Positions 4,737 through 33,160 of a stretch of 41,748 nucleotides of DNA are shown here, one piece after another. The position numbers and the translations under genes are program-made. This stretch comes from Catajapyx aquilonaris (taxonomy: Eukaryota). The stretch is taken from positions 1 to 41,748 of the forward strand of contig KZ538897.1 in assembly GCA_000934665.2 (NCBI GenBank). Direction: 5' to 3'. Numbering within the stretch: the first letter of the stretch is position 1; the number at the start of each line of letters is the position of its first letter. The notes under the pieces were generated by a model. It had not been told where the DNA came from. It ran no database searches and saw only the letters and a program-made list of their open reading frames with translations.

Positions 4737-4843
4737 TGCAAACAGGTAGCTGCCTTCTGTGCATTATAGGGAAGGTCTTCTTCTCCTTGCATCATTTGGA
4801 CTGCTGGCTACTGCTGGAGGCACATCTGTCCTGTGCATTCATC
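4733..4843 (+). other. CCRFa: Putative non-coding first exon (5' UTR) of CCRFamide
   Basis: Runs from the Inr to a consensus donor atc|GTGAGT (4844). The CCRFamide ATG is directly preceded by the acceptor ttttctcAG (6398). Confidence 0.5.
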
Positions 4844-5409: not shown

Positions 5410-6398
5410 GCACAGTATACCCTTGCCTGGTTCACTCATGACATCGGTGTTTAAAACAATGATTGATTGTAGAGCAGCACGATGCTATCGCCAGAATGCC
5501 AAACGAAGCGAGCCCGATGACATATTACGTGTATTCATTTAAAATTCTGGCTGATGTGACCCAATTTAAATGGAGAGAGACGAATTTCCATTGTTGGTGG
5601 ATCTCCCCGAGTGCAACGGAAAAAGGCAGACGAACAATTTTCAGACTCAACAAAAACCTTGATTGGTCTGGCCTGAAATGATGTCCGTAGCATTCACCTC
5701 CAGGAGACATCGCCCGCAGTATAACAAAAGGCCTCGTGCGGACAAATAATTTAAAAAAAAAAAAAAAAATCGAAATCAAACATTGATTTCAAGCCCGGTT
5801 CTTGGCCTGCCAGGGACACATTCGGAATGATAATTGAGACACACACTGGGAATGGAACTATGCATTGTGGACCACTGCAAACGGACCGCTTGAAACATGC
5901 GTTCACTTTGAGGCATACGAACAGAGTGAGAATGTAGGCGTGTGGTCAGTGAATAGAGGTCCAACATTGGATAGGGGGAAAAAAAAGAGTATCGCATTTC
6001 CTGGTGTGCTATACGGTTGCCAGGGAGCAGTTTTGCGGTTGACCACCACGTTGCGCCACGTATTTCCTCTAGGATAGGAGACATTGCGAACCCCCGAAAT
6101 TGCATCAAGTTCAACCCATGAAATGAACTGTGAAACCCACTGACAGGGAGACTGTACAGTAAAAGGTTGAGTGATTTTTTTCCCCCCCTCTCTGGCTTTG
6201 TCTCGTAACCTGTGAAATTGTGTTGGTGTGACCTTTACGCGTTGCCATGGTAGGCTGTTTCATTGAGTACACCCTTTATCATTGCTGGACTATATTGATG
6301 AACGTAATCAGGTTTTATTGACACCGATTAGTTGACGCAATATTTCGCGTATTATTCATAAGGGTGACTGTTTTCTCAGATTAAATATGTTTTCTCAG

Positions 6399-6779
6399 AT
6401 GATGAGGACAGCCGTGACAATTGCACTGTCATGGTGTCTGCTGGCTATGTTGGCCACCGCCTGTCTAGGCAACGGAGACGATGACGACTGCAGCCTGGAC
6501 AAACTCCGGTGTGAGCTGATATGCACATTCCAGGAGCTGGGTGTTCAGTGCGCACGCTGCCAGTCCAGGATGCCCATGCGCTTTGGAAAGAGGAGCCTCC
6601 GAGGGAGGCAGTCCAAGCAGCAGGGTCAGGAACAGGAACAGGCCCTGAAGCAAATGCTTCCATCTGTCCAGGAACCTACGTACTCGCAGAGACCACCAGA
6701 TGACAATAGTAATTCGGAGGTGCGATCTCGCACTCGGCTTTACTTTCCGAACTTGGGTAGGAGATCAGGCTGGGATTAA
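6399..6779 (+). CDS. CCRFa: CCRFamide neuropeptide precursor (126 aa)
   Basis: Signal peptide MMRTAVTIALSWCLLAMLATA, then Cys-rich CLGNGDDDDCSLDKLRCELICTFQELGVQCARCQSRMPMRF and GKR (amidation plus cleavage). The Cys pattern and PxRF-amide end fit protostome CCRFamides. AATAAA at 6940-6945. Confidence 0.88.
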   Translation: MMRTAVTIALSWCLLAMLATACLGNGDDDDCSLDKLRCELICTFQELGVQCARCQSRMPMRFGKRSLRGRQSKQQGQEQEQALKQMLPSVQEPTYSQRPPDDNSNSEVRSRTRLYFPNLGRRSGWD

Positions 6780-8463
6780 CATTAGTTGCGTTCAATATCT
6801 ATCCAATTCGGATTTTAATGGCTGGTATTACACAAACCGTAATTTTCTGGTCGCAAGTTGGTGTCACTTAAACGTTTTTACATGTCTTTTTATTTTGATC
6901 AGTTTGTAGGTTATGTTGTAGAGTGACGCATTGAGATATAATAAATAGCCTGTCATCAGATGTGGACTTTATCAATTATTTTTGTATCAAGTGGTCTGCG
7001 CTGATACCTTCTCCGGTATTACTGAAGCTGCTGACACCACGATACATTCTTCTGTAATAATGCCATGTATGTTGAATACACTCATTAAACATGCGACGTG
7101 GATTATTTGCTTGCATTTCCCAGAACCTCTTATCATTCCATTTTAAACACGAGTACTATGATATGTGTAAAACCAGTACAACTTATTATGATGGGTAACC
7201 GATGGATATGTGAAAATGACTGTCTTTCGGCTTTATTACTGACAGCACTCGTGTGTTACTTTATAATTAGCTAATGTCCCTCTCAGCGACCAAACACAAT
7301 GACAGGTTTGTTGTTGGGGGGAAAATGCCCTTTGTGTACGAGCATATACGTATGTTGACAAAAGAAATAATAATTGCTTCTAGTTTCATTGTAAATATTT
7401 ACATGGCGATAACTAAGCAAATGGAATAGACCTACTGTTGCGTGTAAATATGAGGTTATGAATTTTTTTTCTCATTATCTCAATATAGCTGAGGCTCACA
7501 CAGCACAGGTAATATTAGATCACGTTACTTATTGCCAATAAATATTCAACTGGTGGACATTTTCGACAATGCTTATTTCTTCTTTATTGCCACATATTTG
7601 TATTTGTACAGCTCTATGACGATCACAATATCATTTACGTACGTAGCTGAAATAATTGCACATACACTATTTTAGTTAATGACGAGCAAAAAGTATTAGG
7701 AAAGCGAAAATTCTAGTAAAACAGGCTTCCGTTAAGTATAGGGTAACTAAGAAATGATTTTAGGAACATTTTTATTTCAATTAATCTGTAGCTGATAAAA
7801 CATGCTCTGTGGCACTAGAACTTGAGGAATAGATTGCGGTAACCGTGGCTCTTCTATAGGCCGACTTCTACCGTAGAATAGTTGCGTAGGAGGATGAAAT
7901 CTGAAAATGAAGAGCGGGGCAAGTCAGGACCTTATTGTGCACCAGGCTCATTAGCGAAGCCTGCTAATTAATGCCACAGGTAGAAGAATCATTCGTTACT
8001 TTTCCAAGCTGGAAAATAATACAGGCAAGGCTGTGCTGCTTCAGGTAGTTTAGGTGAAGTCGTAAGCTATATAATCGCGATATACGAAGAACAAGCGATA
8101 AGAAAGCCTCAAGAGAACATGCGCAATTTTAGTACTTGAGAGCAGATGCTAAAAGGTTGAAAGTTTAGCAATTAGGGATTCTGCGGTGCTTGAACTTTGC
8201 ACTTGCTGGTAAGCCAAGGAGAAAGTATGAGCAAAAGAAGCATCTAACACAGCTTGACAAATGGAGCAGTTTGCGATGATAGTATCATTTTCATGAAAGT
8301 CTGCAAAGATCCCAGGCAGAATAATAATATATTGCAACTCTTGATAACTGTAGGAGATTAATCTGTGAAGCAAACGACATCAGTCCCACCACCGTCATTT
8401 CCCGTCACCAGAGATGGCCAAATTGTTGTTTTACCTGGACCGTTTGGGACTAATGATGGTCTG

Positions 8464-9238
8464 TTATTGTCCACGTCTGTGCCACAAGCGGAAAAGAGGC
8501 ATTGGCTTACGCATATGGCCTCTATAATGGTAAGATCTCTTTCCAGGATTGATTGGGTTAATATTTCCGCCATCATTCCAGCAATCGTCACCCAGGTTTA
8601 CGGTACTGCAGTCTCTCTTTCCGGGAGTTGGTCCGGGCAGATGCCCGTTTGAGGTCTGTCCACCGCTGGTCCACTGGCCATTTTGACAAGCATCGGGGTC
8701 ATCTGGGTTGAATTCGCAGTCTCTCTTTCCAGGGGTAGGTCCGTGCATATGTCCGTTAGCGGTACCGGTTCCTGTGCCTGTGCCGCAATTGTCATCGGTG
8801 TTCAGAGGGTCGCAACCTCTCTTTCCCGGTGTAGGTCCATGTTTGTGTCCATTAGCAGTGCCTGTACCTGTAGCTGTTCCTCCGCAGTTGTCATCGGTGT
8901 TCAGAGGGTCGCAGCCTCTCTTTCCCGGTGTAGGTCCATGTTTGTGTCCGTTAGCAGTACCTGTACCTGTACCTGTTCCTCCGCAGTTGTCATCGGTGTT
9001 CAGAGGGTCGCAGCCTCTCTTTCCAGGGGTAGGTCCAGGCAGATGTCCGTTCGCAGTTTGGCCACCACTGGTCCACTGGCCATTTTGACAAGCATCGGGG
9101 TCGTCTGGGTTAAATACGCAGGATCTCTTTTCAGCGTAGTTGCCATGAAGATCATGCAGTCGTGCCAGAAGAATGGCCAAATGCTTGTAGCTACCTTGGC
9201 AACGACCTCCAGGACACAATATTTCAAACGCCCGTTCT
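8464..9238 (-). CDS. Cal-B: Calcitonin gene, calcitonin-B alternative exon with six paracopies (precursor 322 aa when spliced)
   Basis: Acceptor ttaacctgcAG|A completes the phase-2 codon CA from the shared exon, in frame. Six KR-flanked peptides each have an N-terminal Cys pair and a C-terminal P-GKR. Confidence 0.88.
8614..9123 (-). repeat. Coding tandem repeat, units of 108/99/99/96/108 bp
   Basis: Units 9123-9016, 9015-8917, 8916-8818, 8817-8722 and 8721-8614. The three middle units are near-identical, as are the two outer units. Confidence 0.9.
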
Positions 9239-9882
9239 CTGCAGGTTAAATGAGGAATCGAAATAGCTGCGTGAATAATCGCATGCAAGGCGTGCAAAAG
9301 CTGGTTATGAAAATCAGTACAGTAATAAAAATATGGGTGTAAAGGTTAGTAGAGACAAAAGGCTAGAGTATAGGTTAACGCGGCACCACAGTCCACAGGT
9401 GGCTGGTGGCTGGTGGTGGCATGTAGTGGCTGTGTCTCAAAAACGGAACATGCAGGCTGAATAGGCGTGTATCCGCTGAAGGTAGGTCTGTATCCGCAAG
9501 GAAAGGGGGTTAGGTTAGGTTAGGTTGGTACAGCATACCCCTTCCCCTGCCACATTCGGTTTGTCATTACGAAATCCAAACAAAATCAATACTTGCAGCC
9601 TTGCGTTTGCGACACAGCCACTGCCCCCGTCCACTACTCGCCCTCCCGACTTCTTCGGTGCCTCTCTACCCTACTCCTTCCAGACAAAACGACATCAAAT
9701 GTTGGCAATGCATGTGGCGTGCAGTAAAGTCAACTCAACATGATGTGTCCGTTACATGTCGGTTATTAACGGACACTTCATGATGAACCAACGACATTTT
9801 CGACTCTTCGTCAGACACTACATCCTACCAAGAGAAAAGAGAGAAATGGCTATGAGGTTTTGGGACGTGTTTGTCGTGTCCC

Positions 9883-10111
9883 TCAAGCGTTGTGGGATTG
9901 CTGCTGCCTGAGGAGCGCCCACAGGGGGTGCTGGGAATGATCATCCGACGCCTCTGAGCTGGTGGCGTCAAGAGCCTGGTCCGGACTGCGACGACGACGC
10001 TTTCCGGGAGAGTCTGGGGATACCCAGTAGGCTGCTTGCTTAGCGGCGTCCAGTCCTTCCTTGTAGTCGCAGCTCTGGGACATCCCACCGTTGAACAAGC
10101 ACGTCCTCTTC
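9883..10111 (-). CDS. Cal-A: Calcitonin gene, calcitonin-A alternative exon (precursor 140 aa when spliced)
   Basis: Acceptor tttgctattAG|G gives Q-KR-TCLFNGGMSQSCDYKEGLDAAKQAAYWVSPDSP-GKRRRR, matching the arthropod calcitonin-A pattern (TC..N.G.S..CDYK...YW....SP-amide). Confidence 0.92.
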
Positions 10112-10376
10112 CTAATAGCAAACAAACACAAGATTCAGTCTGGAGTTGACATGATATTTTCTCTCTAGCCTGTGACTAGTTGACATACTTGCAATGTAAA
10201 TATGACAAGTCAAACTTGACCTTAAGATGGCCAGCAGAGCCGTATTATCGATTGAACTTTTGTTTACTCGGTTAGGGTTGGTGATCACAACACGCTTGGC
10301 AATGTACAGGGTGTACGCACGTAGCAAAATATTTTATTGGATACTAGCTTATATAATGCAATAATGAAATACTTAC

Positions 10377-10466
10377 TGAACACTGTCCATGTCGTGCTCC
10401 ATACCATCGATGATCCTTTTGACCAAGCCTAGAGCTTTTCGGTTGAGTTGGATACTTCTTAGATGC
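10377..10466 (-). CDS. Cal: Calcitonin gene, shared propeptide exon
   Basis: Encodes (R)HLRSIQLNRKALGLVKRIIDGMEHDMDSV(Q). Donor CA|GTAAGT is phase 2 and compatible with both A and B exons. The acceptor is NAGNAG (10469 or 10466 start, both in frame). Confidence 0.85.
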
Positions 10467-10793
10467 CTGCTCAGGTCCGTAAGGATCGGATTGCCAAGAG
10501 AGTAAAGATTATACAAGTAAATTATGCGTAAGCGTCATCTGGAAACTGAAATTCGGAGAATTTTTGTTAGTTTCTTGCGTAACACCCTGCAGAAGACGTG
10601 GGCGTTCTTCGACACGCACTAGCTGCCACCTGTACTGTGCAAAATGTGAATACAAATAAATTGATTTCCATTACTGCCAGGTGGCATGCAATATCTTCCA
10701 GGTAACCTGGTCATATAAATTTCCTGACCTATACTAGAACAGCTGAAAGTTCGGGAACTGAAGGCCACAATAACCACTAAGGGCCGGTTTCCC

Positions 10794-10948
10794 CAAGCCC
10801 GGTTTTCATTTTTAAAAAACCGGTTCTTTCGGAAAATCCCTGCAAATAGAATAAGAATTTTCCGAAAAAACCGGTTCTTTCGGAAAATCTCTGCAAATAG
10901 AATAAGGATTTTCCGAAAGAACCGGGGTTTTTATGAAAACCGGGCTTG
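10794..10948. mobile_element. Palindromic MITE remnant with an internal tandem duplication of about 50 bp
   Basis: caagcccggttttcat ... atgaaaaccgggcttg arms enclose two copies of aaccggttctttcggaaaatc(c/t)ctgcaaatagaataag(a/g)attttccgaaa. Confidence 0.7.
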
Positions 10949-12362
10949 ATGTTTATTTTAACTTTAAAAACTGCTCTGTTAGAGGGGGAAAAGCAATATG
11001 AGAATGGGATATAAAATGTTTCTTTTTATTCCTCCTGGCCCAATCGTAATCCAATAGTCGCATCGGTGATTCCATTCTAATTTGTTGAGTGATTTACCAT
11101 CTGAAACGAATGGCAACAATTTTGTTTAGACCCGACTGTCACTGGGTATTAAGGCAGCATCGATGTAAGTGTCGGATTCAATTGGCCCTAGGAGGCATCG
11201 TCTAGAGTTCAATAGAAGAGAGTGGCACTTCATATTTAGGAAACTTATAGCTGTCATTCCATTCAGCGGTTCCAATAATGTGGTATTATTATGCGGCGTG
11301 CAATTGGCATTTTGCTGACTATTGCAACCTAATTTGTTTTGATACATCCGAATTTTCTGTATTCATTGTAATCTTGACCCCTTATCATCATTTCGACCCC
11401 GATGAAAGGATTTCCCTCCCTGGTCCTCCCCCGTCGTCAATCTATCTATATGAAGATTGAGCGTCACAATAACCGCACGGACTCCCCCGAAAACGAGCCA
11501 TAAAAGTAGAAGATGGCTCGTGGTTCAGGTCGCCATAAACAATGAACGCAGTCAATTGATTCCATGCAAAGTTTGTTCACCGTAATCGGAGGGTGGGTGC
11601 TGTAAATAACGTTACAATGGTGGCAAATGAGGCGGAACAGGCCATAGATCACCCAGCATGGCTCCATCCGACATTATGTGCTTGCGATCAAAACGATATG
11701 GCAATTGGGCCAAGCAGGTACTTATCGGAGGATGCAATTGAATTAGCAGGGTTTATTAGGACTCAACCGGAAGTGGACTTGATGGATTAGCAGGTCGGAT
11801 TGTAGGCTGCTCGAGGTACAAAACGGATCTAGGCGAGCGTCTTGTTGTCCGGAGAAACCCCTAGACGAGGCTCATCATTCCAGGTTTCCTAGTTCATTAA
11901 ATTAACAGCTTGCTATATATGCTGAGGCTATCAGTGGTTGAACAGGAACTACTTCGGCCTCTTCGCCACTTAGCACATTCCGCCAAGATTTATGGCCGAC
12001 GGCAGAATGTGCAACAATTCGGAACTTTGGGAGGTGGCCCAGTAAGGCCCAGCAATTTACTAGGGGGGTATTAGTTAACAATTAGCAACTTCCTGTTCCT
12101 TAATTTTTATGGCGTAAGACTCTGTATAGAGGGTGTTACTGATTAAAATGTTATTTAGTGGGTAGAGAGATTTTGGTACTGAGCTGCTTATTTATTGCTA
12201 GTATTCGATGTTAATATTAATCCCTGCACAGATATGCAAAAGTGGGTTGTATCATTGTGTTTCATCTGTTGTTCCAATGGGCCATTCATAATAGTAAAGA
12301 ATCCCTTTCAGTATGGATTTTACGGTAGGCCTGTATCACGATTTGTTGGAAGTTATTTTAGA

Positions 12363-12667
12363 TCTATATAAATAAAGCCGTTTGTGAGTCTGTCTGTCTG
12401 TCTGTCCGCCTGCCAACCGTCATTTGCCTACCATCTGTGCTCAACCCCCAGGCCGGGAGAGGATGGAGGTGTTGGGGGTTGACTACAGATGGCAGGCAAA
12501 TGGCGGTTGCCGTTATACAGGCGGGAGAGGTTGGAGGTATTGGAGTAGCAGTACCACAGATGGCATTGGTGGGCTGACACACAGAAAGACAGACAGTTGA
12601 CGGGGGTACTGGCAGGTGTTTTCCCTTCATTCATTTCTTCCCGGGCAACGCCGGGTGCCGCAGCTAT
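12363..12667 (+). mobile_element. Non-autonomous Helitron, copy 2
   Basis: 5' A|TCTATATAAATAAAGCC, (GTCT)n, 3' hairpin cccgggcaacgccggg then gcagCTAT (altered CTAG). Highly similar to the 18180 copy. Confidence 0.85.
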
Positions 12668-13380
12668 CTTAGGTAAAGCAAAACTTAGTTTTGAAATATT
12701 ATGTCTATGCAAAAGTTAGTGCGGTTTTTATGAAAAATAGAAAATCTCAAACTTGTTTGCAAATATCAAAATATTGAGCAGAACTTTCAATGACCCTTTG
12801 GCAACGTTAGGGCAGCTGATGAATGCCGCGGTGGTAAAAACTTCTGGACTTTGACTCAAAGAAGTCAACCATCAATTTCTCAACATCCGTGAGACTGGCG
12901 AAGTGCTCGCCAGAGAAGCCATGTTGCATATAATAGAAATGTCTTTTTTGTTGCTATCGCTCTGGTTTTAAAAAAATAACGAGAAAACAGTGGCGAAGGT
13001 GGGTATTGTCGGAGTTAATCTCGAAATCTGATAAAAAAACAGTGACTGATAGAGCAGTATTCTTCAATTCATGTGGGAGGATTACCTAGTAGAAAATATG
13101 TCGAAATTTGGTTAAGCGCATTGCAAAATATATCCTGCGTGATGATACTGTCTCGCAACACACTTGTTTCGCAACATTATCATTTCGCAATTTAGTGATG
13201 ACAGAAACTCGTCAAATACGTTGTGGAGACACCTACTTCATAAGGCGGACAATCGATTGGCATCGACTAGTCAAATGTGACGCAGAAAGTACAATCATAA
13301 TATATTAATGTACGCATGCCTCGTGTCCCTGGTATTACACTGAAGGAGTGCAGTCGAGTTTGAAAGGATCTACTGCCAAG

Positions 13381-15261
13381 ATGAAGATTTACGGTGTAGG
13401 AATTGTGTTAGTGTCATACTTCTTAACCGGTTGTGAAAGCAATAGCAATAGCACTCTGGACAAACTGCTAGACTTTATTATACCAACATTCCCTCCTAAC
13501 TGTTCCGTAGTATTTGTGCTTGACCATACAACACGTGACATTCTTGGATCCATCTATCAGTATGAATCTTTAAGTTACCGGCCTTGGTCTATACTTATTG
13601 TCGATCCAGATGATGATGTGACTTATGAATACTCGGTTTACAACGGTCAGTGCAATGTGTACGTTTTCATATGCTCACAAGACGAGTGTCTCGATGCCGA
13701 TCTTCCGATGAGACGAAACATAGACTATTTTGTGATACACCTGACTGATGAAAACACTAAATACCTGCCAAGTTCGATAGGTAGCAGGAACATCCTTTTG
13801 ATTGAAACCGATTTAGATGGCGATCAAGTAGCAGGATATAAGCTGATTATACCTAGCTCAAAATGCCCATATGACCCTAGCCTGACTCAACTGACCTACT
13901 GGCATCCCAATGACGGTTTATCTCGCTATGTTCGGGATTTCTTCCCATGGAATTCCTATCATGACATGGCTGGTTGTGAGATGACATCATGCACATCCTC
14001 TTCTTTGGATATGTACTTATTGCATACCATTGCTACTTCAGTCAATATGAAACTTTCTATCCATGAGTGCCGAGATTCCGATGATATATTTCGTGCAAAT
14101 ATATTGATGGGACTTCCGGCTAGCTTATGGGTGTTCAGTGGAATACGACCTGCGTTTGGAGTTGACATGAGTTTCCTGATACCCAACACAATACAACCGA
14201 AATTCAGTTGGATTTCTCTGCTAAGGTGCTACGAACCCTGCTTATGGTTGTATTTTCTGATCATAGTGCTGGGATCCGGAGTCTTCATTTGGATCCTGAG
14301 TAGTATAATCAGATCAGTATCACGAAGGAAGCCATGGGAAGGCAGCAGCTTGTCTTCGGCCATGCTTTACTCCGTCGCGATCATTCTTCGACAACGTCGG
14401 CCTCTTACCTATCACACGGCTCCGCGGTGCTACATTGGATTCTACTTGTTATTTTGCCTCATGATCTCAGGTGTCTATATGCGTGCTTTGATCAAAACTC
14501 TGACAGTGCCTGATGACATGACTGACCGGTTGCCATATATGTTGTGGGATCTAATGGAAAGTGATGTTTACAACGTGGCTAAAACCGTAAAAGCATCCCT
14601 TCTGATTGGTAGTAACGACTACTTTCAAGACAGACTAGACCAGTACAAAGTAGATGATACATGCTTGGAGAAGCTACTCGAAGACGACAAGGCAGTTTGT
14701 ATTGGCTCAGTCGACCAGTTGTCTCATTTTTCCCGAGAATATCCTAACAGAAAATTCCATCATGGTCAGCTATTCTTAACCGGAACTCCAACCTTCTGGG
14801 GATCAAAAGTCATACCAAACCTGTTGGATGCGAAGTTGGCGGGTCTACAGAATTCTGGGATTGTTGAGTACTTTCGTAAGAAGGATGACTTTGAACGAGA
14901 GGAAGTTGAGGATTGGAGTCGTCCGCGAGTAGCTAAGATGGAATCATTAAAAGGAGCCTTTTTGGCTTTGGTAGCAGGGTGGATAATTTCTTTGTCTTTG
15001 ATTATCCTAGAATTGATGATATCCTGCGTATGCAATGTCTCACGAAAGTTACTAAAGAAAGGTGCCGCAAATAATGAGCCAGAAGATACGGAATTCATGG
15101 GCGGTCTTGTGGTAGAAAATGTCATTGTTGTTGAGGACATTGTACCAAGTCCGGAGGCAAAAATTAGGCCCATGACAGTTGTCGGCTTCGTATATGAAGA
15201 CACTGAAGAATCCGAAGATGACAGCTCAACTCCATCTCATAGACGCTCTCTGAGTTTCTAA
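13381..15261 (+). CDS. Intronless divergent ionotropic receptor (variant iGluR, chemosensory IR), 626 aa
   Basis: Signal peptide MKIYGVGIVLVSYFLTGCES; pre-M1/M1 LLRCYEPCLWLYFLIIV; pore loop MLYSVAIILRQ; M3 RCYIGFYLLFCLMISGVYMRALIKTLTVP; S2 end LQNSGIVEYF; M4 SLKGAFLALVAGWIISLSLIILE. The first ATG is 13381 (the track start at 13348 is GTG). Confidence 0.9.
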   Translation: MKIYGVGIVLVSYFLTGCESNSNSTLDKLLDFIIPTFPPNCSVVFVLDHTTRDILGSIYQYESLSYRPWSILIVDPDDDVTYEYSVYNGQCNVYVFICSQDECLDADLPMRRNIDYFVIHLTDENTKYLPSSIGSRNILLIETDLDGDQVAGYKLIIPSSKCPYDPSLTQLTYWHPNDGLSRYVRDFFPWNSYHDMAGCEMTSCTSSSLDMYLLHTIATSVNMKLSIHECRDSDDIFRANILMGLPASLWVFSGIRPAFGVDMSFLIPNTIQPKFSWISLLRCYEPCLWLYFLIIVLGSGVFIWILSSIIRSVSRRKPWEGSSLSSAMLYSVAIILRQRRPLTYHTAPRCYIGFYLLFCLMISGVYMRALIKTLTVPDDMTDRLPYMLWDLMESDVYNVAKTVKASLLIGSNDYFQDRLDQYKVDDTCLEKLLEDDKAVCIGSVDQLSHFSREYPNRKFHHGQLFLTGTPTFWGSKVIPNLLDAKLAGLQNSGIVEYFRKKDDFEREEVEDWSRPRVAKMESLKGAFLALVAGWIISLSLIILELMISCVCNVSRKLLKKGAANNEPEDTEFMGGLVVENVIVVEDIVPSPEAKIRPMTVVGFVYEDTEESEDDSSTPSHRRSLSF

Positions 15262-16303
15262 GGCGGTCTAAAATAGCATAGTACTGTATTAATGGAGAGT
15301 TAAGGTTGCTAAAGTAACGAGCTCTTACTTTATGTAAATGACGACTTACGTGTGTGAGTAAATCATAATATCCCGATATATTTTGTGCTAATATGGCAGA
15401 GAAAGTGAGGTCAACATTTTACTGCCAATACGCGTATTTAAAATATCTGTCCAGTTTTTGAAATATGCATGAATAGGTGACTGAAAGCAAGTCGCGAATA
15501 CCTACAGTGATATTGTCAATATTGGATTGATGATTCTGACTGAAGTGAAATACCTTTTTCACTTGACTATTTGCATATCCACAATTCACTATTGGGCAAT
15601 TTGAGTACATTCTTTATTTGCCAGAGTAAACTCCTTGGAACTGCCCTTTTACAGCACTACCACAAGTTAATGGTTAAATTTAGTGTTGTACTTCTATGTG
15701 AAGATTTATTTTGCAATGTACTACAGCTACGGTTGATGTCAATATTTGCTTAAAAATTTCGATTTTGTCGTGTGTAATGCCCACTTGACCTGGCCCTGCT
15801 GCAGTGCTTATTTTCAGGCACTCATTACGTCAGATTACACATTTCATCGTATCTTTGCTTTAGTCGTAACACTAATGATGTCGTTGTGCACTCCCATCTG
15901 AGTGAAGAGGCCAAACATTAATCTTTTGAAGCACCACTAACGCAGGTGTTTTTCTTGTCCCCGAGTGCGTATTATTCCGGTACGGGTACAAGATCAATCC
16001 TCAGAAGCCAAAGTTCACTGTTCACACGTCACCGTTAAGTCAACAGGTTTCTGCTGCATTAATATATTACTGTTATTGGCAATAATATTCTGTGTCACGT
16101 CGTTCGTGAAGACATGGATTCTGAACCACTTGTCAATGGCTTATGAATTATTTTGCTTTCTGCTCTGAACTGTGAGTGGCAACATATGTCGTGACCTTCA
16201 ATTTAATGATGATGTTGGCACCTCTTGTTTGAATTCTTGTACTGCGTATATGATAATATTTGGCTGATGGTTTTTCAATCTAATAGTTAAGACGGCCCAT
16301 GTA

Positions 16304-16442
16304 CAGTGAAACTTGTTACAGCGGACCCCTTATGAAGACTTGTAATGAGCCTTAATTTTTTCTAGTTTAGGTTTTCCCTACGTTGACTATTACGGAAAAT
16401 TTTCGCGGAACAACACGGCTCCGCTATATACAGGTTTCACTC
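16304..16442. mobile_element. Degenerate Tc1/mariner-pogo-like MITE
   Basis: TA|cagtgaaacttgttacagcgga mirrored by tccgctatatacaggtttcact. Confidence 0.55.
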
Positions 16443-16520
16443 ATTTGGAGATTTTATGTATTCGTTATTTCCATTATATGTCCGATTTTATCGTACCTCA
16501 TGATATTAGTAGCCTATATA

Positions 16521-16794
16521 CAGGGTGTTAATCCTAGGCGTGTCACCAGAAAAGGTGGTGGTAGAGGGCGCAGGTGTGATCATTTTTGAGTAGGGAACTA
16601 GGGGTCGGAAACGCATCCTCACCGAGTCACTCCGCCGCGTGCCGCACGCCTCTTGCACACTGCCTGCCGCAAACTTGAAAGGGGCGTACTCGGTGAGGGT
16701 GCGTTTCCGACCCCTAGTTCCTTATGCAAAAATGCTCACACCTGCGCCCTCTACCACCACCTTTTCTGGTGACACGCTTAGGATTAACACCCTG
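16521..16794. mobile_element. Tc1/mariner-type MITE (274 bp)
   Basis: TIRs of about 110 bp beginning CAGGGTGTTAATCCT, with TA on both sides. Confidence 0.92.
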
Positions 16795-17569
16795 TATTGC
16801 ATCTTCATGATTTGTGAGTGAAATATCTGCATTTTTTGAACTTGTCACTTTATTTGTTTGACATATTCTTCCTGGAAACATACAGTACTGTAATCTAGAT
16901 GTTGTGGACAACTGAAAAAATAGTTTGCATTTTGTATGCAGAATTTATCATTTTCGATTATTATTCACAGACTGTCAGGTAACATGTGGCTTTAACTTTC
17001 TTCGCCAAGAGCCTTCACATGACATATTCAAATGTGGCGCTTGAGGAAATGGCATCCTGTTAAGATACGTCCTGTCGCTGTCGTGTGCGAGCTCATCGCG
17101 TTGTAAAGAATATTCGTACCATAGCACATGATATCCGGCAGTCCAGCCATAATCGAGTAATTTGTAGATCTAAATTTCTATATTGTAATTTTTTACGTTA
17201 CCCCGTGATAGGGCCAGAAGCCCTCTTAGGGGGGTGGAATACCACAATTTTCTATCAATTTTCTGTAATTTTCTTCAACTCCGGTGCAAAATTTTCTATA
17301 TTTAATTTATTGTTTGCATGTAGCATCATATGTAGTAGCCTAATCATGCTTTCATATGGTACCTGTATACTTGAAATTCTACGCAATAAAGTGTGCAAAC
17401 TGGAAGGCGTGTCATTTAGAGTACATGAATGAGAGCGTTGCCATGGTGTAAAAATTGAGTCCTGATCCTCTGAGGATATAAGAGTTAGGGAATTAGGAGC
17501 GATCCCAGCAGGCACTTGCCTCGTCAGCGTAGAGAGGAAAAGGAAAGTCCCTTACGGAATAGATCTCAC

Positions 17570-17673
17570 CTGTCAAACATGTCGCCATAGCTCTGGGCAT
17601 GGCTGGTTCCCAGGACGAAGCAGCCCAAAATGAAGAAGCTGCACAGCATTGGGATGTGGAGGTGTCCCTTCAT
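17570..17673 (-). CDS. Cal: Calcitonin gene, first coding exon (signal peptide)
   Basis: MKGHLHIPMLCSFFILGCFVLGTSHA-QSYGDMFD, then AG|GTGAGA (phase 2, matching the shared exon to give Arg). Acceptor cgtttcAG precedes exon start 17702. Too short for the ORF track. Confidence 0.78.
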
Positions 17674-18179
17674 CTTCGTTTCCTTGCCGATGATTACTAG
17701 ATCTGAAACGAGCCAATCAGAACTGATTTCGTTGTTTTATATACTTAATTTTTCTTCACATGTTTTATAATTGATGAATTCGTTAACGGTGGCAAAAAGG
17801 CGTTAATGTCCTAGGTCATTTTCATATCGACAGCTTTCATTGTATAAGCCACGGATTGTCCGTTGTTGCATGGTCTCTGTATAGGCTCTTTTTTTATAGA
17901 TCTGCTTCATGAGTGTCACGCGTTGATAACGTGGAAATGATGATATTTATACTTACAGAGTTCAACTAATCGCGTCGCGTTGTCAGCTTTGCAAAATTGC
18001 ACATAAGTGAATTCGTGTGTAGAAACACGGAAGAGTACCTTCATGAATCAAATGTGTACAGCCTACTAACCATAATTTGTTGGTAAAGAGGTAAGTAGCT
18101 GTAACCGCTAACATGATCATTTCAGTATTGCGGATTTATTTTAATTTTGATAGGAAAAGGCGAGAAATAATTCCATATA

Positions 18180-18489
18180 TCTTCTATCTTCTATATAAAT
18201 AAAGCCGTTTGTGAGTCTGTCTGTCTGTCCGCCTGCCAACCGTCATTTGCCTGCCATCTGTGCTCCACTCCCAGGCCGGGAGAGGATGGAGGTGTTGGGG
18301 GTTCACTACCGATGGCAGGCAAATGACGGTTGCCGTTATACAGGCGGGAGAGGTTGAAGGTGTTGGAGTAGCAGGATACAGATGGCATTGGTGGGCGGAC
18401 ACACAGAAAGACAGACAGTTGACGGGGTTACTGGCAGGTGTTTTCCCTTCATTCATTTCTTCCCGGGCAACGCCGGGTGCCGCAGCTAG
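18180..18489 (+). mobile_element. Non-autonomous Helitron, complete copy 3
   Basis: Inserted between A and T; 5' TC, 3' hairpin cccgggcaacgccggg and terminal CTAG; no TSD. Confidence 0.9.
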
Positions 18490-21400
18490 TAACGACATAA
18501 ATTCGTAGTGCTATATCAAATCTGAATAGTACATTTGCTCCTAAGTCAGTGAATTATGTATACAAGCATATTGTGTTTCTACGTCAATTTTAGTAACAAA
18601 ATAACAGCCCTCTACAAGTCTATGATTGCCCTATTCAATCTATCACTTACGTTTACGATCAAAGGTATGATATTCATAAAACTTCCGCTTGTATGATTAT
18701 CACACGTATTTGAACTTCGAGAGAGTTTTGAAACACTGATTAATGGCCGATCTTGCTCACGGCCAATTTTCACTTTATGTATCGGATAATCTGATATGGG
18801 AGGATTTAATATAGGCCTACATCCTCCGACTATAGAACGTAGGCGGCGGAAGTGATAAAAGTCATCAACCTTCTCTCGCATTAACTAGCAGACCAGTGTA
18901 ATAAAACATTTAACTAACACTCAGATTCAGTGCAATATTATGAAAGAATAACATAAAGTACGATGATCAAAATTCAAGCCGGAGAGGTGTGGCAGACTCC
19001 CTGTTGTAATTGATGTGAAAAAATTGATATTGGACTGCAATCTTTATCGATTACTCTATTTTGATATGGAGAATGAAATTACTCAAAGTTGATTACTCTG
19101 GAAGCAGTTGTGACGTAGGTTATCCCTTGTTGGTTTCCAGGCACAGACTCCCAATAGAGTGTACTGTATCTAAAAAACCAGAGCCATTTGGATGGAAGGC
19201 AAGCGACGCAACCTTTAAACAATGCGATTTCAAAGGGAATCGGATTTCAGTGATTAACAGTCAGACATTTTAAATCACAGGTGCAGTGCATGAATTTTAA
19301 AGGAGGACGCAAAAGCCTGTGGATTAAACGTTTTAAATGTATTCATCACTTTGAAGGACGCAAAAGCTACAAACTATAGTAGAGATAAGCTCGTTTATAG
19401 AGTTTTATATGCGACGTATATCTTCCTAGTTTGTCCTATATGTTCAACTGCGTAACTTTTCATTGTGTAACTCTACTAATTTGCTAGACGTAATTATTAG
19501 GCAAGTCAAAGAATAAAATTATAATGACTTCCAACAAAGTCTGAACTTCGGGGAAATTTTTTGACGAATATTTAAACCCGATTTTGAAACCTTCCCTTAG
19601 AAAATTTTGTGTTAATGGTTCTGGCCTAATTTGCAAACGACTCATTTGAATCAACTTTTCTCGGCTACGGAGAAAGCCGGATAAAAATAGGCCAATCCAA
19701 CCTTCGCTTGCGATTGAAGAAATGCTCTAACTTTTCCTTCTTCGACAACCACAACTTTTGAACAAGCAGAAACCAAGGTCCTTCGATGCACGTAGACAGA
19801 TGCTAACTAAAGACAAAAGAAAATGACGTACTTGTCAACCTGTTTAAGCACATTCTTTATACAAACTGGTAGCATACCAATTCGTCCGAAACAAATTCGT
19901 CCGATGCAACCTCGCCAGATCCATTCTCGACACTTAATTCCGATTAACTCGCCAATGCGATGGCTGCTCCAGTTGCATCTATATTATTAATACCCTACTG
20001 TGATGGCGATTCCTCCCGCTATGTACGGCCTACAGCATTGGAAGTGATGTCAAAATTTCGCCCGCGTGTCCTATATTTGCAATAAACTTTTTTTTTTTGG
20101 AAATAGTGTCTAGGGAAATTATAAAACACAAAAAACGCCGACCGCCTTAAAAAAAACAACCACCACGGAATTCCCATTCCGGCCGCGGGCGCTACCTCCG
20201 GTATTCACCGGGTAATTCGGTAATTCGCCGTCGGATATCGCTGCCTGGTCCGCGTCTCTCTCAAATTTTGGCAAGTTGGTGCCTAGTATAGTCATATCCA
20301 CCGTGGTAATAACGCTCAAAATATTTCGATTGAACCAAAAGTCGACTTAATTATCCAATATTGGATTACTCATAAGCATCGAACACGCTACACTCCACAC
20401 CATACTAAAGAATTATTGTTAGAGACCTGAATACTTAAGAGGACTCATTTACATCCGCTTGGCGACGTTACAGCTGGTAACATTCTGCATTAGTGTTGAT
20501 CCCCAGATTAGTAACAGCATATGAACCCGAATCGAAGCGCCTGCCGTAGCTTATTCATCCCTCTTCATCCGCAGCTGAAACCACAAGGCCGGTACTTCAT
20601 CCCTAATTTTGTACTTAGCTCTTACAAATTTGGATTTAGCTAAAGATATACAAACAGTATTAGAACCGGTTTTTAAAAAATAGTATTTTGGAAGCATATC
20701 CGCGTGGGGATGTTCGGTTAGGCGAGGAATAATTTATTGCGCAACCATATCAAAGATGATTGTTTGCTTGCGCATCGCTGCCGGTGGACACAAAACCACG
20801 GCTTTGAGATATGCCAGTTTAGCAACATTAGTTACACCTCGGTGAACACAGGTTCTTAGGTAGAAGCGAGTTCCGCCCCGTGCGTCTTTATTTCCTTCGA
20901 GTCTTCCGAGGCCAACCATTCCTCGTTGGAAAATACTGCTTCTGAGAAACTTCCTAACTTGCTCTGAGGGTTTTGCTCTCATGTTGCTTGTACGTTGGGC
21001 CTTCATAAACCGAATCGAAATGTCTTCCGTTTTGAAAAGTTTGGAGGAATTCTGTAAGACTTATTGGGTCATACGATATCCGGCTGTTGCTGAATTATTA
21101 CATAAACTAGCAAATAATATGACTTATGGTGTGGTATTAAACGAGAAAACATGGGAAGTAGCTAATATTACCTACCCAGTGCGGATGCATCATAATGATT
21201 GATCAGTTGGACGAGGTAGGACCCGTGGGTATAACCATTTTTTTGGGATCATTTTTGTTGTGGGAAATAACAACCGCTTTTTCATTGTGGCAAAGTTGCG
21301 TGAATACGGGAGAGAAAAATGATTATTATTCATATCGATCGAATTATGGTAATGCTGCCATTTCCTTGCATTTCACTCGTAGGAATCTTGGGGTCGGAGT

Positions 21401-24400
21401 ACTTCATTTTTGCATCGTTGGTACTGAATATTACAGTAGTTGAATGCATGAATGTTTTATGGTGACACAAGGATGATGGTAAATTAAGTGAGATGGTACT
21501 GTAATATTGCGCATTGTGCTTCTTTTTGTGGTTAGCAGACCATTTTTGTGAGTGTTTTTGAAAGGCTTTGCAGCAGTGTTTAAAAATGTTGGGCTTTATG
21601 TGGACACAGGAACGTTATAACATTTCTCTTATATTATACTCATACCAGGCCTATGGACGCTTTTTTTTGTTAACTATTTCGCATTTTAGGATTTGCGGCA
21701 ATGTCGAGTTTAGGTATTGAGCAATTTGTAACTACGTAGTTCAATTCAGAGCAGGCAATCCTGCCGTGCTTTGTTGTGGTACTTACAATTAGTTTCAATG
21801 GTGCCATACTGGCTTGTCATTATTCACAATGACACTTAAAGCTATAGTTTTGCTCCTCTTGAATGAAATATCTTCAGAGTAAAATATTACCTAATTAGAG
21901 TGTGATTTGCTGTTGTAATTATCTATTAATTTATGTTTGTATGAGGATGGGAGTTATAGTAGTCATAAATGTATTAAATGGTAGACAGGAAGATATATAA
22001 TAATTCGGATACAGTTAACTAGCAAGTGAAACTGACTGTCCTTAAAATTAGCAAACTCGTTAGGATTTGCAGGTGAACTTTCTGAAGTTTTCAGGCGCTG
22101 ATAATTTACCGTAATTTGTACTCGCGGGCATTGGTTTTTGACTTTTGCCAGTGCTCATTAAAATTGCGCTACGCTTTTAAAAAATCAAGATAAATTGATT
22201 AACAGTGAGGACGTGCTCATTTTGCCCTTGCACAGGTTAAGTATACGGCTTCTTATTCTTGAATCTGCTGATATAGTGTTTAAAATGCTTTTCATGTGCG
22301 AAGAGAGAGCGAAAGTAAGCTATCGCTCATAGCTTTTAAAAAAAAAAAAAAATGCGCTACTATATGAATATTAATTCAGACCTTGAAGACGTTAATAATG
22401 AAGCGATCACGACATAAGCACCAGACAAAGCAAACCCTGTCTGAACTGCAATGGTGAAGATTAAGGCGAAATTTCGCGAAATTGAGGCCGCAATTTCAGT
22501 CCCGAGTCACGTATGGCAAAGAAACGAGTTGTTGTTTACAAAGATGGTAAGTGTCACTTTATTTTTATAACGCCTGAAACGGGTTGTAATATGTCAATAT
22601 TAGTAGTATAGTTTGATAAGTATCGCCATTCATGAGTCATCGGTGTATGTAGCAGTGATGTTGAATTTGAGGTGCTTTCATATATGATTTAACTCCTGGA
22701 AAAGAATGGAAATCAGAAGCCATCTTCTAGACCGCATCGATTGAGAGATGTGAGACACATTGCCTATCAAATGTTCCAGAACCATTCCAGTTCCTTTGGA
22801 AATAGAAACCTAAAGGTACCGCTACTGTAGAAAATTCCTGGAAGGCACTGTGTGATTGCATTTGAATCCGTTTGATCTTTGGATCGACATATTTTGTAGT
22901 GGCACGAACCACAGCCAAAAAGTAATATAATGGTAGTATTTATAATATCATGATAATAGCATTACTCGGTAGTTTTTTTTAAACAAAAGGCTTATTATTT
23001 ACTACAAAGAAAAAGAGTCCGTTTTTATATGTACAGTATATTCCAGTTACATACTGTAGAAGCATAACACATTACCCGCGGGGAATAGAATAGTAGACGT
23101 CAGATTTCAGTTTTGTTGTATCTAAATATTAACATGACATGTTAATTTTTCTAAAATTTGGTTTAAGCCTGGAAGAAACCCTGAAATTTTGGAAGCAGTC
23201 CGAATGAGATATCAACGTTATTATTTTCTTGCATATTTATGTATATCGAGCATGTTTGATGATATACAAGTACATTCAACTCTTGTGCGACATAAATAAT
23301 TATTTTGGGTGGTCCTATAGGAAGGTACCTTCCGAGGCCACATGAAATATTTGTCTTAGAATGCTTCGAAATGGGTCATGGCCCCCGTGTTGTATTAAAT
23401 ATAGTTTCTTTATGCTTTTTTCATAACATTTTCATTCGCTGACATTGTTGCGGTAGTAATCATCATGTCCGATTTTTTTTCTCTTTAGTAACCATTATAA
23501 TATACGGTATATGTTTCCGGACACTTTGCCTATCCAATGTGAACATCGCTTGAATATTTTGTTAATTATGGTAGGAAATTTTCTAAAAACTATTATGAAC
23601 ACCATTTGTGTGTACTTATCTCTAATGATTTGTGACATTCTAATTATGGCCAGCTTTCATAACTCAAATCGACTCGCACCGGAAACTGTCAATTTTTGTG
23701 CTTACAGAAAAATTACAATCATGAAAAACCACGGCAAATTTTAAGACTTTACCTCACTATAATTATAACTTAGACCCTTACAATCTTAACCTGCAGATTA
23801 GTTAGGGCCTGACTTTTTGGCCCGGAACATTTCTAGAACTCATTTCGGGCCTTCCTCAGGCAAGCGAAATGAGCCAGAAAATGGCAGATATGTTCTTTAT
23901 AAATAGGATTCTTCTACAGATCATGCCTAAGTATTCTATTCAACATTTAAAAAAATAGTAACTACGATAAAAATAAATAAATAACTACAAACAATCCAAC
24001 ATTCGGGTGTGGAGAAAACCATTCTACCACCCTGTAGGTGGTACAACAAAAGTCGTGACCTTCATCAAGTTTGAAAATCCTTATAACAAATCAAAGACAT
24101 GCAAAACACTCATTAAATAATATGAATTCCACATCTCTCCAGCAGCAGAATATGCTTAATTGGCTATTACATGTTACCATTAATGGAACCACATTCATGC
24201 ATACTTGACGCGACTAATTCCAAGACATCCCACAATATTTGCCTGAAAAGTTGTTGGCGGCACAGTAAGCCAACAATCTCAACTAACCAAAAATTTAATT
24301 CAAAAGGTTGTAAATAAGCACTCACCTGTAGGTTGACCTCTATTCCTAACCATAAAAAATTATTATAAAATATAACTCAAAAAGTTACACAAAAGTCATG

Positions 24401-24587
24401 AACACTGCCATCCTACATAAATACACCAAAATTCCTCAAAGTTCAACTCTAGTTTCAGAATGAAACATTTCCAATGAAACACCCAAATAAGCTCTTTAGA
24501 GTTAGCCAATCTTCTAGTAATCTGATCAAAACTTTGGGCAAGTAACGACCAGAAAAATTAGATTGATGTGACTGACACCTGCCTTAC

Positions 24588-24772
24588 CTCACTTGTTGAT
24601 CAAATGGGGAGATCCCACCTGTGGCTTGGATGGATGCTACTGCCTCTGGGCTAGAAAACCCTGATAATGTGATGACAAGAGGGGGTGGTCCAGTGATATG
24701 AAGGAAGGAGTGCAAGGGGGGATAGATAGATACTTTGGGGCTGATCGAATGCGCACTGGGCTGCTTTTGGCA
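24588..24772 (-). other. Putative non-coding first exon of the calcitonin gene
   Basis: ATG-free stretch starting about 30 nt below a TATA box and ending at donor GAG|GTAAGG (24587). The next clear minus-strand exon is 17702-17570. The TSS is approximate. Confidence 0.5.
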
Positions 24773-24795
24773 ACAGCCCTGCTGCTGGAACCCTC

Positions 24796-24802
24796 TTTTA
24801 TA
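24796..24802 (-). promoter_or_regulatory. TATA box (TATAAAA) of the putative calcitonin promoter
   Basis: Minus strand reads caTATAAAAgagg, preceded by a long C/T-rich tract. Confidence 0.55.
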
Positions 24803-30800: not shown

Positions 30801-31528
30801 CATGTGGAAGGCTGTTGAAGCCTGAAAGACGCCCTTTGGGGCTTCTCATATGAATGCCCGCCGCCAATCCGATGAGTACTTTCAACTTTTTTAGTGGTAC
30901 CCAATGACCACGTGCACGGCCAATTTCCTGTCCTGTTTAGAGCCCAAATGGCCACCTTTTATCACCGGACTGCCTTCATCTGCAAGATTTTTGCAACTTG
31001 GAAGGTGCAGGATTGTGGACATGTATGCATCACCCACCGCTTAGAGCCACCAATTTGGAGGATTTAGTATGGCATTACACCTACCACAAACTTCTTTTGA
31101 ATACTTGGCAGGGGGACGAGAAGTGATAAGAAATGATTTAATTGGGATTTTATTTCCTGCACCGACGCTCGTAGCGACGCCCACATTCATTATGGGAACT
31201 GGCCGTGTAAAAGCGCAATTAGAGTCACCTCTAAATGTCGCGTCCTGCTTGCGTGTTTGGGCTCTGAGTGTCGGATTAGAATGTCCCGAGTAGGAATAGC
31301 CGGATTTGGTTGTAGGTGATTGATATCGTCCCACGAACAAACCGCAAAAGGCTATACATCACAAGTGGGACAAATGAGTGCCGACAAATATTAAAGTGGA
31401 CAGTGTTGGATATTAATCGCGTCATACTGCTTGCGACATTTTCTGATGCGGCAGAAGTGCAAATCGAAGTGATAGAGTGTGAGCCGTGCGAGTAAGAAGA
31501 GGTAGGCCTTGAGTGACGTCACCGGCTG

Positions 31529-31550
31529 NNNNNNNNNNNNNNNNNNNNNN
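31529..31550. other. Assembly gap (22 N)
   Basis: N run next to a poly-C tract at the palindrome centre. Confidence 1.
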
Positions 31551-32242
31551 TTGGCCCCCCCCCCCAGTGACGTCACCCAAGGGCTACCATTTCTTACTCG
31601 CACGGCTCGCACTCTATCACTTCGACAGGGACCATATACTACATAAGAGGCGCAAACTTCTGTCGGCGCCTTTGATGTTCGCGTCTCTCTGCTCGGGGCT
31701 GGCGGCCATTTTGAAGTGTGGGGAACGCCAACCAGGTATAAATAGGGTACAGGCAAAAATATGGTCCGCCATCTTTGATGGTTTTGGCGGCCATGGCAAC
31801 TACATGGCAAGAACACGCGCGAATCAAAGATGGCGGACCCTATTTTTGCCTGTACCCTATTTATACCTCGTTGGCGTTCCCCACACTTCAAAATGGCCGC
31901 CAGCCTTGGCAATACCCCAAACAGAGAGACGCGGAAATCAAATGTTTTCGCCTCTTCATCAATCTAGTCTAATATATATAAAGCCCCAATCCGAGGAGGA
32001 GGAGGAGAATGAAAAAGATTTCGCACTTCCCGGCGTCGCAGAGACGTCGGACTTGCACCGTTGGATTTCTAGCCTCCGGTATACCGATGCCAAAAATGGA
32101 CCGTGACGTCACGGGTTCTGTAAACGGATGGATTACAGCGGAATACGGGCACCGCGCCGAAGGCGCGCAAGTGGGGCGCAGCTCCACGGGGGGGTCCGGG
32201 GGGGCGGAGCCCCACCGGCTCGCAAAGCGAGTCAAGTATATA

Positions 32243-32666
32243 CAGGGTGTATCTGAACTAAGTGCCCCGACGTATATGACTGCCTTCCTAGCCACCAGAG
32301 GATCGATTGAAGTGTAGGAGTCATTATGTCTGGCCGCCGCATTACTGAGATAAATGCCCGCAAACATGTAGTACAAAATATCCTGTCGGTTAGGCCACCC
32401 ATCGAACCCTCCCCCAGTCAGAAGGCTCTGGAAGGTCTGGGGGCCGGACTTTGTTGGTTTGTTGCCCACAGGTGGTAAGGCCTCTTTGGCTAGTTACACC
32501 AGAAAATTCTATTTAAAAGTCAGAAGGAGCTATTAGGCAAAAATCGCTAAAGAGTGTATCTCAGTAATGAGGCTGCCCAGACATAATGACTCCTCTACAT
32601 AAGTTGATCCTCTGGTGGCTAGGAAGGCAGTCATATACGTCGGGGCACTGATTCAGATACACCCTG
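32243..32666. mobile_element. Tc1/mariner-type MITE (424 bp)
   Basis: TIR CAGGGTGTATCTGAA...agtgccccgacgtatatgactgccttcctagccaccagaggatc is mirrored at the right end; TA on both sides. Confidence 0.9.
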
Positions 32667-33130
32667 TATAAAGCCCCAATACGAGGATATAGGATATAGG
32701 ATGGAAAAGATCTCCCACTTCCCGACGTCGTAGAGGGCTGGGAGTGGCCTTAAAATTGCTGCAAAAATCAAATGGGAATCGAAAAATCCTCAAAACTGCA
32801 AATTTCCCAGCCGTTTTCGAGCTATGGCCCAAAAACCAAATTTTAATTCCCGGCCGTGTCCAGATGTTCGTTAAGCCCGAGAACAATGGCCCACCCTCTC
32901 CTCTCCACCCGCTGTCACTCAAACCTGCCGTTGGAATGATACGTCACAGATGGTCCCACTTGTCATCCCAAGCGCTGTTTTGAACGATACGTCGAGAGGG
33001 CACGTTCGGAAACTCCTCATCTCTACCGGTGACGTCACTGATTTCTGTAACCGGATGGATTAGGCGGAATACGGGCACCGCGCCGAGGGCGCGCAGGTGG
33101 GGCGCAGCCCCACGGGGAGGTCCGGGGGGG

Positions 33131-33160
33131 NNNNNNNNNNNNNNNNNNNNNNNNNNNNNN
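33131..33160. other. Assembly gap (30 N)
   Basis: N run inside a poly-G tract. Confidence 1.

What the first reader, a model, noticed from the sequence alone, without database searches (positions are those of the whole stretch)
10467..17569. Intronless chemosensory IR nested antisense inside the calcitonin gene
Seen: the best signal-peptide exon (17673-17570, strong donor, phase 2) joins the shared exon in frame across 7.1 kb, and that intron contains the full IR ORF on the opposite strand. Known: divergent IRs are often single-exon and thought to spread by retroposition. Inference: a chemoreceptor embedded in a gut/neural hormone gene could share enhancers (for example sensing in calcitonin-B enteroendocrine cells) or be expressed mutually exclusively through transcriptional interference.
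Basis: partly seen in the sequence, partly recalled or inferred. Interest (0 to 1): 0.75.

Follow-up and report, generated by a model that had tools for sequence, protein, structure and literature searches.

The report
Chemoreceptor gene inside calcitonin gene intron
An intact, single-exon gene for a very divergent taste/smell-type ion channel lies backwards inside the predicted long intron of an arthropod calcitonin hormone gene; a second calcitonin gene in the same genome has the same exons without it, so this is likely an ordinary gene-within-a-gene with no link between the two functions.

Summary
Observation confirmed. The 104-nt phase-2 signal exon (17673-17570, minus strand) is the only good candidate among 260. 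It matches the signal exon of a second, A-only calcitonin gene in this genome in length and phase, and the termite precursor layout. The 7,103-nt intron holds an unbroken 626-aa ORF on the plus strand, a divergent ionotropic receptor (Lig_chan above cut-off) with no close paralog. One correction: the 'shared' exon 10466-10377 is more likely A-specific, as in termite and stick insect (shared in a crab). The IR is intronic in either isoform. The regulatory reading is unsupported. The paralog's matching intron is 1,047 nt and has no IR. IR-family matches lie on at least 144 contigs. In flies, nested pairs are common, 71% antisense, and no more co-expressed than random pairs. No retroposition scars were found, and no RNA run was listed, so splicing and expression are untested. 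The scan had not noted this pair, but it noted IRs nested in two other genes of this genome (unchecked). Verdict: real, ordinary nested gene.

The parts
24588..24802 (-). Predicted calcitonin promoter (TATA at ~24802) and non-coding first exon ending at 24588
   Evidence: TATAAAAG motif and donor GAG|GTAAGG; the paralog on G000:C6455 has the same TATA and a near-identical exon end; termite gene also has a non-coding first exon (PMC4237046 Fig. 2 legend). Not tested in RNA.
17570..17702 (-). Calcitonin signal-peptide exon (ATG 17673; 104 coding nt; phase-2 donor)
   Evidence: 47% identical to the paralog's 104-nt phase-2 signal exon; same 35-residue span as the termite shared N-terminus
10467..17569 (-). 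Host intron, 7,103 nt, GT-AG, phase 2 (8,331 nt, to 9239, if B skips the next exon)
   Evidence: homologous intron of the paralog is 1,047 nt
13381..15261 (+). Divergent ionotropic receptor, single coding exon, 626 aa: predicted signal peptide, short N-terminal domain, shortened S1, M1 (292-310), M3 (352-370), S2, M4 (525-543)
10377..10466 (-). 90-nt pro-peptide exon; likely A-specific, possibly shared
   Evidence: 69% identical to the 90-nt exon of the A-only paralog; A-specific in termite and stick insect, shared pro-region in a crab
9883..10111 (-). Calcitonin-A exon (one Cys-bridged, Pro-amide peptide)
   Evidence: compared by eye with termite calcitonin A
8464..9238 (-). Calcitonin-B exon (own pro-region, six Cys-bridged Pro-amide peptides)
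   Evidence: no second B exon found in G000
12363..12666 (.). ~300-nt dispersed repeat; further copies at 18190-18488 and near 430-670
   Evidence: copies 91-97% identical on many contigs
12700..13057 (.). Older dispersed repeat(s), leaving about 320 nt of unique sequence before the IR start codon
16518..16797 (.). ~280-nt inverted-repeat (MITE-like) dispersed element
   Evidence: 110-nt arms; copies 93-96% identical
10768..10951 (.). Short inverted-repeat dispersed element

Best explanation
An intact 626-codon ionotropic-receptor gene lies antisense in the predicted intron behind the signal-peptide exon of a calcitonin A/B gene, and it is likely a passenger: probably transcribed from its own nearby promoter in chemosensory neurons, where it would act as a tuning subunit with an IR co-receptor, while the host is predicted to splice it out in its own neurons (A) and gut cells (B). 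Shown: the layout, the open frame, the family, the exon homologies and the absence of the IR from the paralogous intron. Inferred: the splice junction, expression of either gene, the cell types (from locust and decapod data), the co-receptor need (recalled IR biology). The antisense orientation and lack of introns probably let the insertion be tolerated. Any mutual exclusion would be a by-product of two narrowly expressed genes, not a switch.
For: A second calcitonin gene (G000:C6455) has the same TATA/non-coding exon end, 104-nt signal exon, 90-nt exon and A exon, but a 1,047-nt intron with no IR trace (best tblastn E 0.76). IR-family matches lie on at least 144 contigs (counted in 70; lower bound, true iGluRs included). 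That gives about 0.4-1.7% per gene of this intron span and 16-57% for at least one of an assumed 50 neuropeptide genes. Nearly 10% of fly genes are nested and 71% are antisense; expression correlation of nested pairs (median rho 0.019) equals random pairs (0.032) (PMC3814207 passages; PMC5174743 passages). The same intron also collected at least four dispersed repeats. The frame stays open although nothing closer than 22% overall identity was found among the aligned paralogs, which argues for a maintained gene.
Against: No expression data at all. Co-expression of antisense nested pairs is reported as relatively common in C. elegans (PMC12274878 abstract). Only about 320 nt of unique DNA lies before the IR start, and no TATA box was found there, so the IR may borrow nearby elements. 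The paralog is A-only, so it cannot test a link specific to calcitonin B. The chance estimate rests on an assumed gene number and on uniform spread.
Confidence: 0.74

Rival explanations
1. Convergent transcription is used as a real switch: heavy calcitonin transcription through the intron silences the IR in peptidergic cells, or the reverse, and this is selected.
For: The promoters face each other about 11.5 kb apart. Interference is argued to shape fly nested genes (PMC5174743 passages).
Against: That paper treats interference as a cost that selection removes, not as a function. The paralog works without the IR. No expression data.
Confidence: 0.08
2. The IR shares enhancers with calcitonin and is a luminal or internal sensor in calcitonin-B enteroendocrine cells (or calcitonin-A neurons), gating peptide release.
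For: Calcitonin B is made by midgut enteroendocrine cells in locust (10.1101/2021.07.28.454216). The IR is retained in the gene that has the B exon and absent from the A-only copy. [quoted passage not shown] Nested co-expression occurs in C. elegans.
Against: Fly nested pairs are not co-expressed above random. Convergent transcription in a high-output endocrine cell should hinder the IR (inference). A nested-induced short host RNA starting below 13381 would have no signal exon. A literature search listed no title on IRs in enteroendocrine cells among the 20 of 25 papers shown (listing only).
Confidence: 0.07
3. The IR is silent or on its way to becoming a pseudogene; the open frame simply has not broken yet.
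For: S1 is about 39 residues shorter than the family profile (positions 198-275 vs residues 211-249) and lacks the conserved S1 glycine motif of its paralogs. It has the longest branch in the tree (2.22). The nearest canonical AATAAA is 2.1 kb downstream.
Against: 626 codons without a stop, with a predicted signal peptide and all three membrane helices. No recent parent exists in the assembly from which an unselected intact copy could have come.
Confidence: 0.08
4. The nesting is an assembly chimera made at dispersed repeats on either side of the IR.
For: Young repeat copies lie on both sides of the IR (12363-12666, 16518-16797) in a fragmented assembly of 20,583 contigs.
Against: It needs two wrong joins at different repeat families that leave and then rejoin the same gene. 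No gap in the intron. Two signal exons and two A exons were found in G000 and they pair up contig by contig.
Confidence: 0.03

Closest known systems
Opposite-strand intron-nested protein-coding genes of Drosophila (PMC3814207, PMC5174743; passages read)
   Same: Short duplicate-family gene inside a long intron, antisense, single coding exon (37% of antisense nested fly genes are intronless).
   Different: Host is a neuropeptide precursor; this pair was not found in print; no parent gene can be named.
Divergent ionotropic receptors of arthropods (Croset et al. 2010, PMC2924276; passages read)
   Same: Single coding exon, about 620 aa, Lig_chan domain, lineage-specific, parent not identifiable.
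   Different: Unusually isolated (<=22% identity to aligned paralogs; best outside hit 25%, E 4.7e-7) with a shortened S1 lobe.
Arthropod calcitonin A/B gene of the termite Zootermopsis (Veenstra 2014, PMC4237046; passages and supplement parts read)
   Same: Non-coding first exon, signal exon of the same span, 30-residue pro-exon, A exon, then a multi-peptide B exon.
   Different: Six B peptides instead of three; an extra A-only gene exists in this genome; an IR sits in the intron (the termite intron content was not seen).
C. elegans ceh-10 nested in polq-1 (PMC12274878; abstract only)
   Same: Opposite nested layout.
   Different: There the nested gene induces a short host RNA; here such an RNA would lack a signal exon, and no link is shown.

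Membership tests
Divergent ionotropic receptor (iGluR superfamily) | Lig_chan ion-channel domain | tested here: met
   PF00060 32.5 bits vs cut-off 30.8; all displayed Atlas rows are arthropod-dominated clusters at 0.95-0.97, top rows with Lig_chan; profile of the alignment hits kainate/NMDA/delta chains, best E 1e-25
Divergent ionotropic receptor (iGluR superfamily) | Signal peptide, M1-pore-M3, S2, M4 topology | tested here: met
   Hydrophobic spans 292-310, 352-370, 525-543; confident helices in the model; signal peptide judged by eye only
Divergent ionotropic receptor (iGluR superfamily) | Complete S1-S2 ligand-binding clamshell | tested here: inconclusive
   S1 about 39 residues short of the family profile; model pLDDT <50 over most of S1, mean 54, pTM 0.40; Foldseek hits are all iGluRs but weak, best E 3.5e-4, TM 0.15
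Divergent ionotropic receptor (iGluR superfamily) | Single coding exon, not an ortholog of conserved antennal or co-receptor IRs | tested here: met
   One open frame; best library hit 25% identity, 15 hits at E<=0.001, none at 1e-10. Named antennal IR orthologs were not placed in the tree.
Divergent ionotropic receptor (iGluR superfamily) | Expression in chemosensory neurons and ligand-gated current with a co-receptor | not testable with these tools
   No RNA run listed
Arthropod calcitonin A/B gene | Cys-bridged, Pro-amide peptides of A and B type on separate exons behind one signal exon | tested here: met
   compared by eye with precursors in PMC4237046 supplements; Pfam has no matching family
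Arthropod calcitonin A/B gene | Both transcripts made by alternative splicing | not testable with these tools
   All joins are in frame; no RNA
Intron-nested gene | Whole inner gene inside one intron of the host | tested here: met
   Coding region wholly inside 10467-17569; UTR ends unknown, first downstream AATAAA at 17385 is still intronic
Retrogene inserted at this site | Intron-bearing parent, poly-A remnant, target-site duplication | tested here: not met
   No parent; no A-run >=7; longest flank match 11 nt, at the 95th percentile of 200 shuffles. An old event would have lost these marks, so retroposition is unproven, not excluded.
Co-regulated nested pair | Shared enhancer, or correlated or exclusive expression | not testable with these tools
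   No expression data; indirect evidence is against

The most novel reading that the evidence does not exclude
The orphan IR has been kept in the intron of the one calcitonin gene that still makes the gut B peptides because it shares that gene's enteroendocrine enhancers, and it is the luminal chemosensor that triggers calcitonin-B release: sensor and hormone encoded at one locus, with the A-only duplicate having shed both the B exon and the receptor.
Probability: 0.06. Interest if true: 0.7.

Novelty: new member of a known kind. Interest (0 to 1): 0.2.

Why it matters
As it stands it is a correct and useful annotation: a calcitonin A/B gene, an overlooked IR in its intron, and an A-only paralog that serves as an internal control. 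Nested antisense genes and single-exon IRs are both common, so the layout alone tells little. It would matter if the IR proved to be expressed in calcitonin-B gut cells, since that would name a sensor for a gut hormone whose trigger is not given in the papers read here.

Tried and rejected
RNA evidence: no RNA holder was listed for 8400-18000; this is no evidence either way, and no reads could be laid. Word-based protein searches found nothing for the IR or the B exon; single-sequence PDB search found nothing. Alternative signal exon inside the intron or below 13381: none; extending exon 10466 upstream meets a stop with no ATG. Signal exon belonging to another gene: rejected by homology to the paralog's signal exon; the genome search with this 34-aa query found only itself, so it is insensitive, having missed the paralog. 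Close IR parent: none for the N-terminal 250 aa or the DNA; only 70 of 337 candidates were scored. Tree: quick method only, 38 rows (window IR, 26 of 29 own loci with L017, L022, L026 left out, 11 of 15 library hits); the IR's place is unsupported. Structure model too weak for ligand-site claims. Retroposition scars: not found. Dating: paralog dS about 1.4, dN 0.24 on 108 codons is near saturation and cannot order IR arrival against the duplication. Literature: no paper held calcitonin A, calcitonin B, ionotropic receptor and intron together; searches for IRs nested in introns gave no usable rate (listings only). PMC4770511 did not cover this gene. Intron lengths in the termite figure are an image and were not seen; supplements of the bioRxiv locust paper (its Fig. 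S1 on exon boundaries) were not seen and may bear on the shared-exon question.
Full report
What is there. The window is a whole contig (G000:C1773) of a 286-Mb, 20,583-contig genome. The homologs point to an arthropod; I did not identify it further. On the minus strand lies a calcitonin gene: a signal-peptide exon (acceptor 17702, ATG 17673, 104 coding nt, phase-2 donor at 17570), a 90-nt exon (10466-10377), a calcitonin-A exon (10111-9883) and a calcitonin-B exon (9238-8464) with six peptides. All joins are in frame. On the plus strand, inside the 7,103-nt intron, is an unbroken ORF 13381-15261 of 626 aa.

Is the signal exon right? Three lines say yes. First, of 260 ATG-to-phase-2-donor candidates upstream of 10466, only this exon has a strong donor and a hydrophobic core; the one loose candidate inside the intron lies in a repeat. 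The donor matrix was a generic one of my own. Second, the termite A and B precursors share an N-terminus of the same 35-residue span, followed in A by a 30-residue segment that resembles the 90-nt exon (PMC4237046 supplement; by eye). Third, a search with the A exon found a second calcitonin gene on G000:C6455. It has the same TATA motif and non-coding exon end as window 24802/24588, a 104-nt phase-2 signal exon (47% identical), a 90-nt exon (69%) and an A exon.

Correction to 'shared exon'. In termite, the B mRNA skips the third and fourth exons (Fig. 2 legend), and the stick-insect A and B precursors diverge at the same point. The 90-nt exon is kept in the A-only paralog, and the B exon here carries its own 36-residue pro-region. 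Against this, a crab shares the whole pro-region between A and B (PMC4888303 supplement), and both joins are in frame here. I put A-specific at about 70%. The IR is intronic either way.

The inner gene. It scores above the Pfam Lig_chan cut-off. The Atlas returns arthropod IR-type clusters at 0.95-0.97. A profile of it with 26 paralogs hits iGluR structures. It has three membrane spans in iGluR order. It is an orphan: 17-22% identical to 26 aligned paralogs, best library hit 25% at E 4.7e-7, no second match for its N-terminal 250 aa or its DNA, and the longest branch of a quick tree, with unsupported placement. Its S1 lobe is about 39 residues shorter than the family profile. The model is weak there (mean pLDDT 54), so nothing can be said about a ligand. 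An intact frame with no recent parent favours a maintained gene, but decay is not excluded.

How it got there. A single long frame is the norm for this family here (25 of 49 non-self matches have open frames >=580 aa; 12 of 29 fetched loci were cut at an edge). Croset et al. attribute the intronless state to one or several old retropositions followed by DNA-level duplication, and could not name parents (PMC2924276 passages). No poly-A tract and no target-site repeat beyond chance were found. So retroposition at this site is unproven. The paralog's homologous intron is 1,047 nt with no IR trace. Either the IR arrived after the duplication (dS about 1.4 on 108 codons, near saturation) or it was deleted from the duplicate; the data cannot order these. 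The window intron also holds at least four dispersed repeats.

Is it surprising? IR-family matches fall on at least 144 contigs (44, 104 from the listed rows, 4 shared; counted). One search scored only 150 of 948 candidates, and the count includes true iGluR genes. With 144-300 sites spread evenly, a gene with 7-16 kb of intron has a 0.4-1.7% chance of holding one; among an assumed 50 neuropeptide genes the chance of at least one case is 16-57%. In flies nearly 10% of genes are nested, 71% antisense, and nested pairs are no more correlated in expression than random pairs (PMC3814207 passages). Interference is described as a cost that selection removes (PMC5174743 passages). On the other side, co-expression of antisense nested pairs is reported as relatively common in C. 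elegans (PMC12274878 abstract). Earlier notes of this scan describe IRs nested in a TRP-channel gene and in CRIM1 in the same genome; I did not check them.

Mechanism. Most likely the two genes are independent. The host is predicted to make calcitonin A in neurons and B in midgut endocrine cells, as in locust (10.1101/2021.07.28.454216, abstract, introduction and passages), and to splice out the intron. The IR is probably driven from the ~320 nt of unique DNA before its start, or from an unseen 5' exon, in chemosensory neurons; its need for a co-receptor is recalled IR biology and comes from no call. Antisense orientation and lack of introns make such an insertion tolerable. A short host RNA started from the IR promoter region would lack a signal exon and so could not give secreted peptide. 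One point keeps the gut-sensor reading alive: the IR sits in the copy that has the B exon, and the copy without B lacks it. That is a single case.

Novelty. No paper in the library held calcitonin A, calcitonin B, ionotropic receptor and intron together, so this pair seems undescribed there, but the kind is well known. Interest 0.2.

Noticed in passing
L035:2909-4719 (G000:C6455, minus strand): Second calcitonin gene, A-only, with the same exon sizes and phases; no B exon found in its contig or elsewhere. An A/B gene plus an A-only gene differs from both the one-gene termite and the two-gene locust layouts in the papers read. It lies just downstream of the last exons of an ABC-transporter-like gene (judged by eye from the ORF).
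   Followed up: partly
window 6387-6779 (+), TATA-like site near 4700, possible non-coding exon ending near 4833: CCRFamide neuropeptide gene, tail to tail with calcitonin, about 1.7 kb between the stop codons. The Cys spacing and the C-terminal RFamide motif match crab CCRFamide1 by eye (PMC4888303 supplement). Whether the two genes are neighbours in other arthropods was not tested.
   Followed up: partly
window 8464-9238 (-): The B exon has six peptides from ~99-nt repeats; three carry Gly/Thr-rich runs and look unlike the termite B peptides. Its pro-region holds an extra pair of cysteines.
   Followed up: no
window 12363-12666 and L035:3663-3897: The same ~300-nt repeat family sits in the homologous intron of both calcitonin genes, in the same orientation; flanks do not align, so these are probably independent insertions.
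   Followed up: partly
   Followed up: no
window 17703-24587 (-): The predicted first intron of the calcitonin gene is about 6.9 kb against 159 nt in the paralog, so both long introns are expanded in this copy, not only the one with the IR.
   Followed up: no
window 31464-33284 and 37575-37915: Nested inverted-repeat elements next to the two N gaps; the upper 17 kb of the window shows no long ORF that looks like a gene.
   Followed up: no
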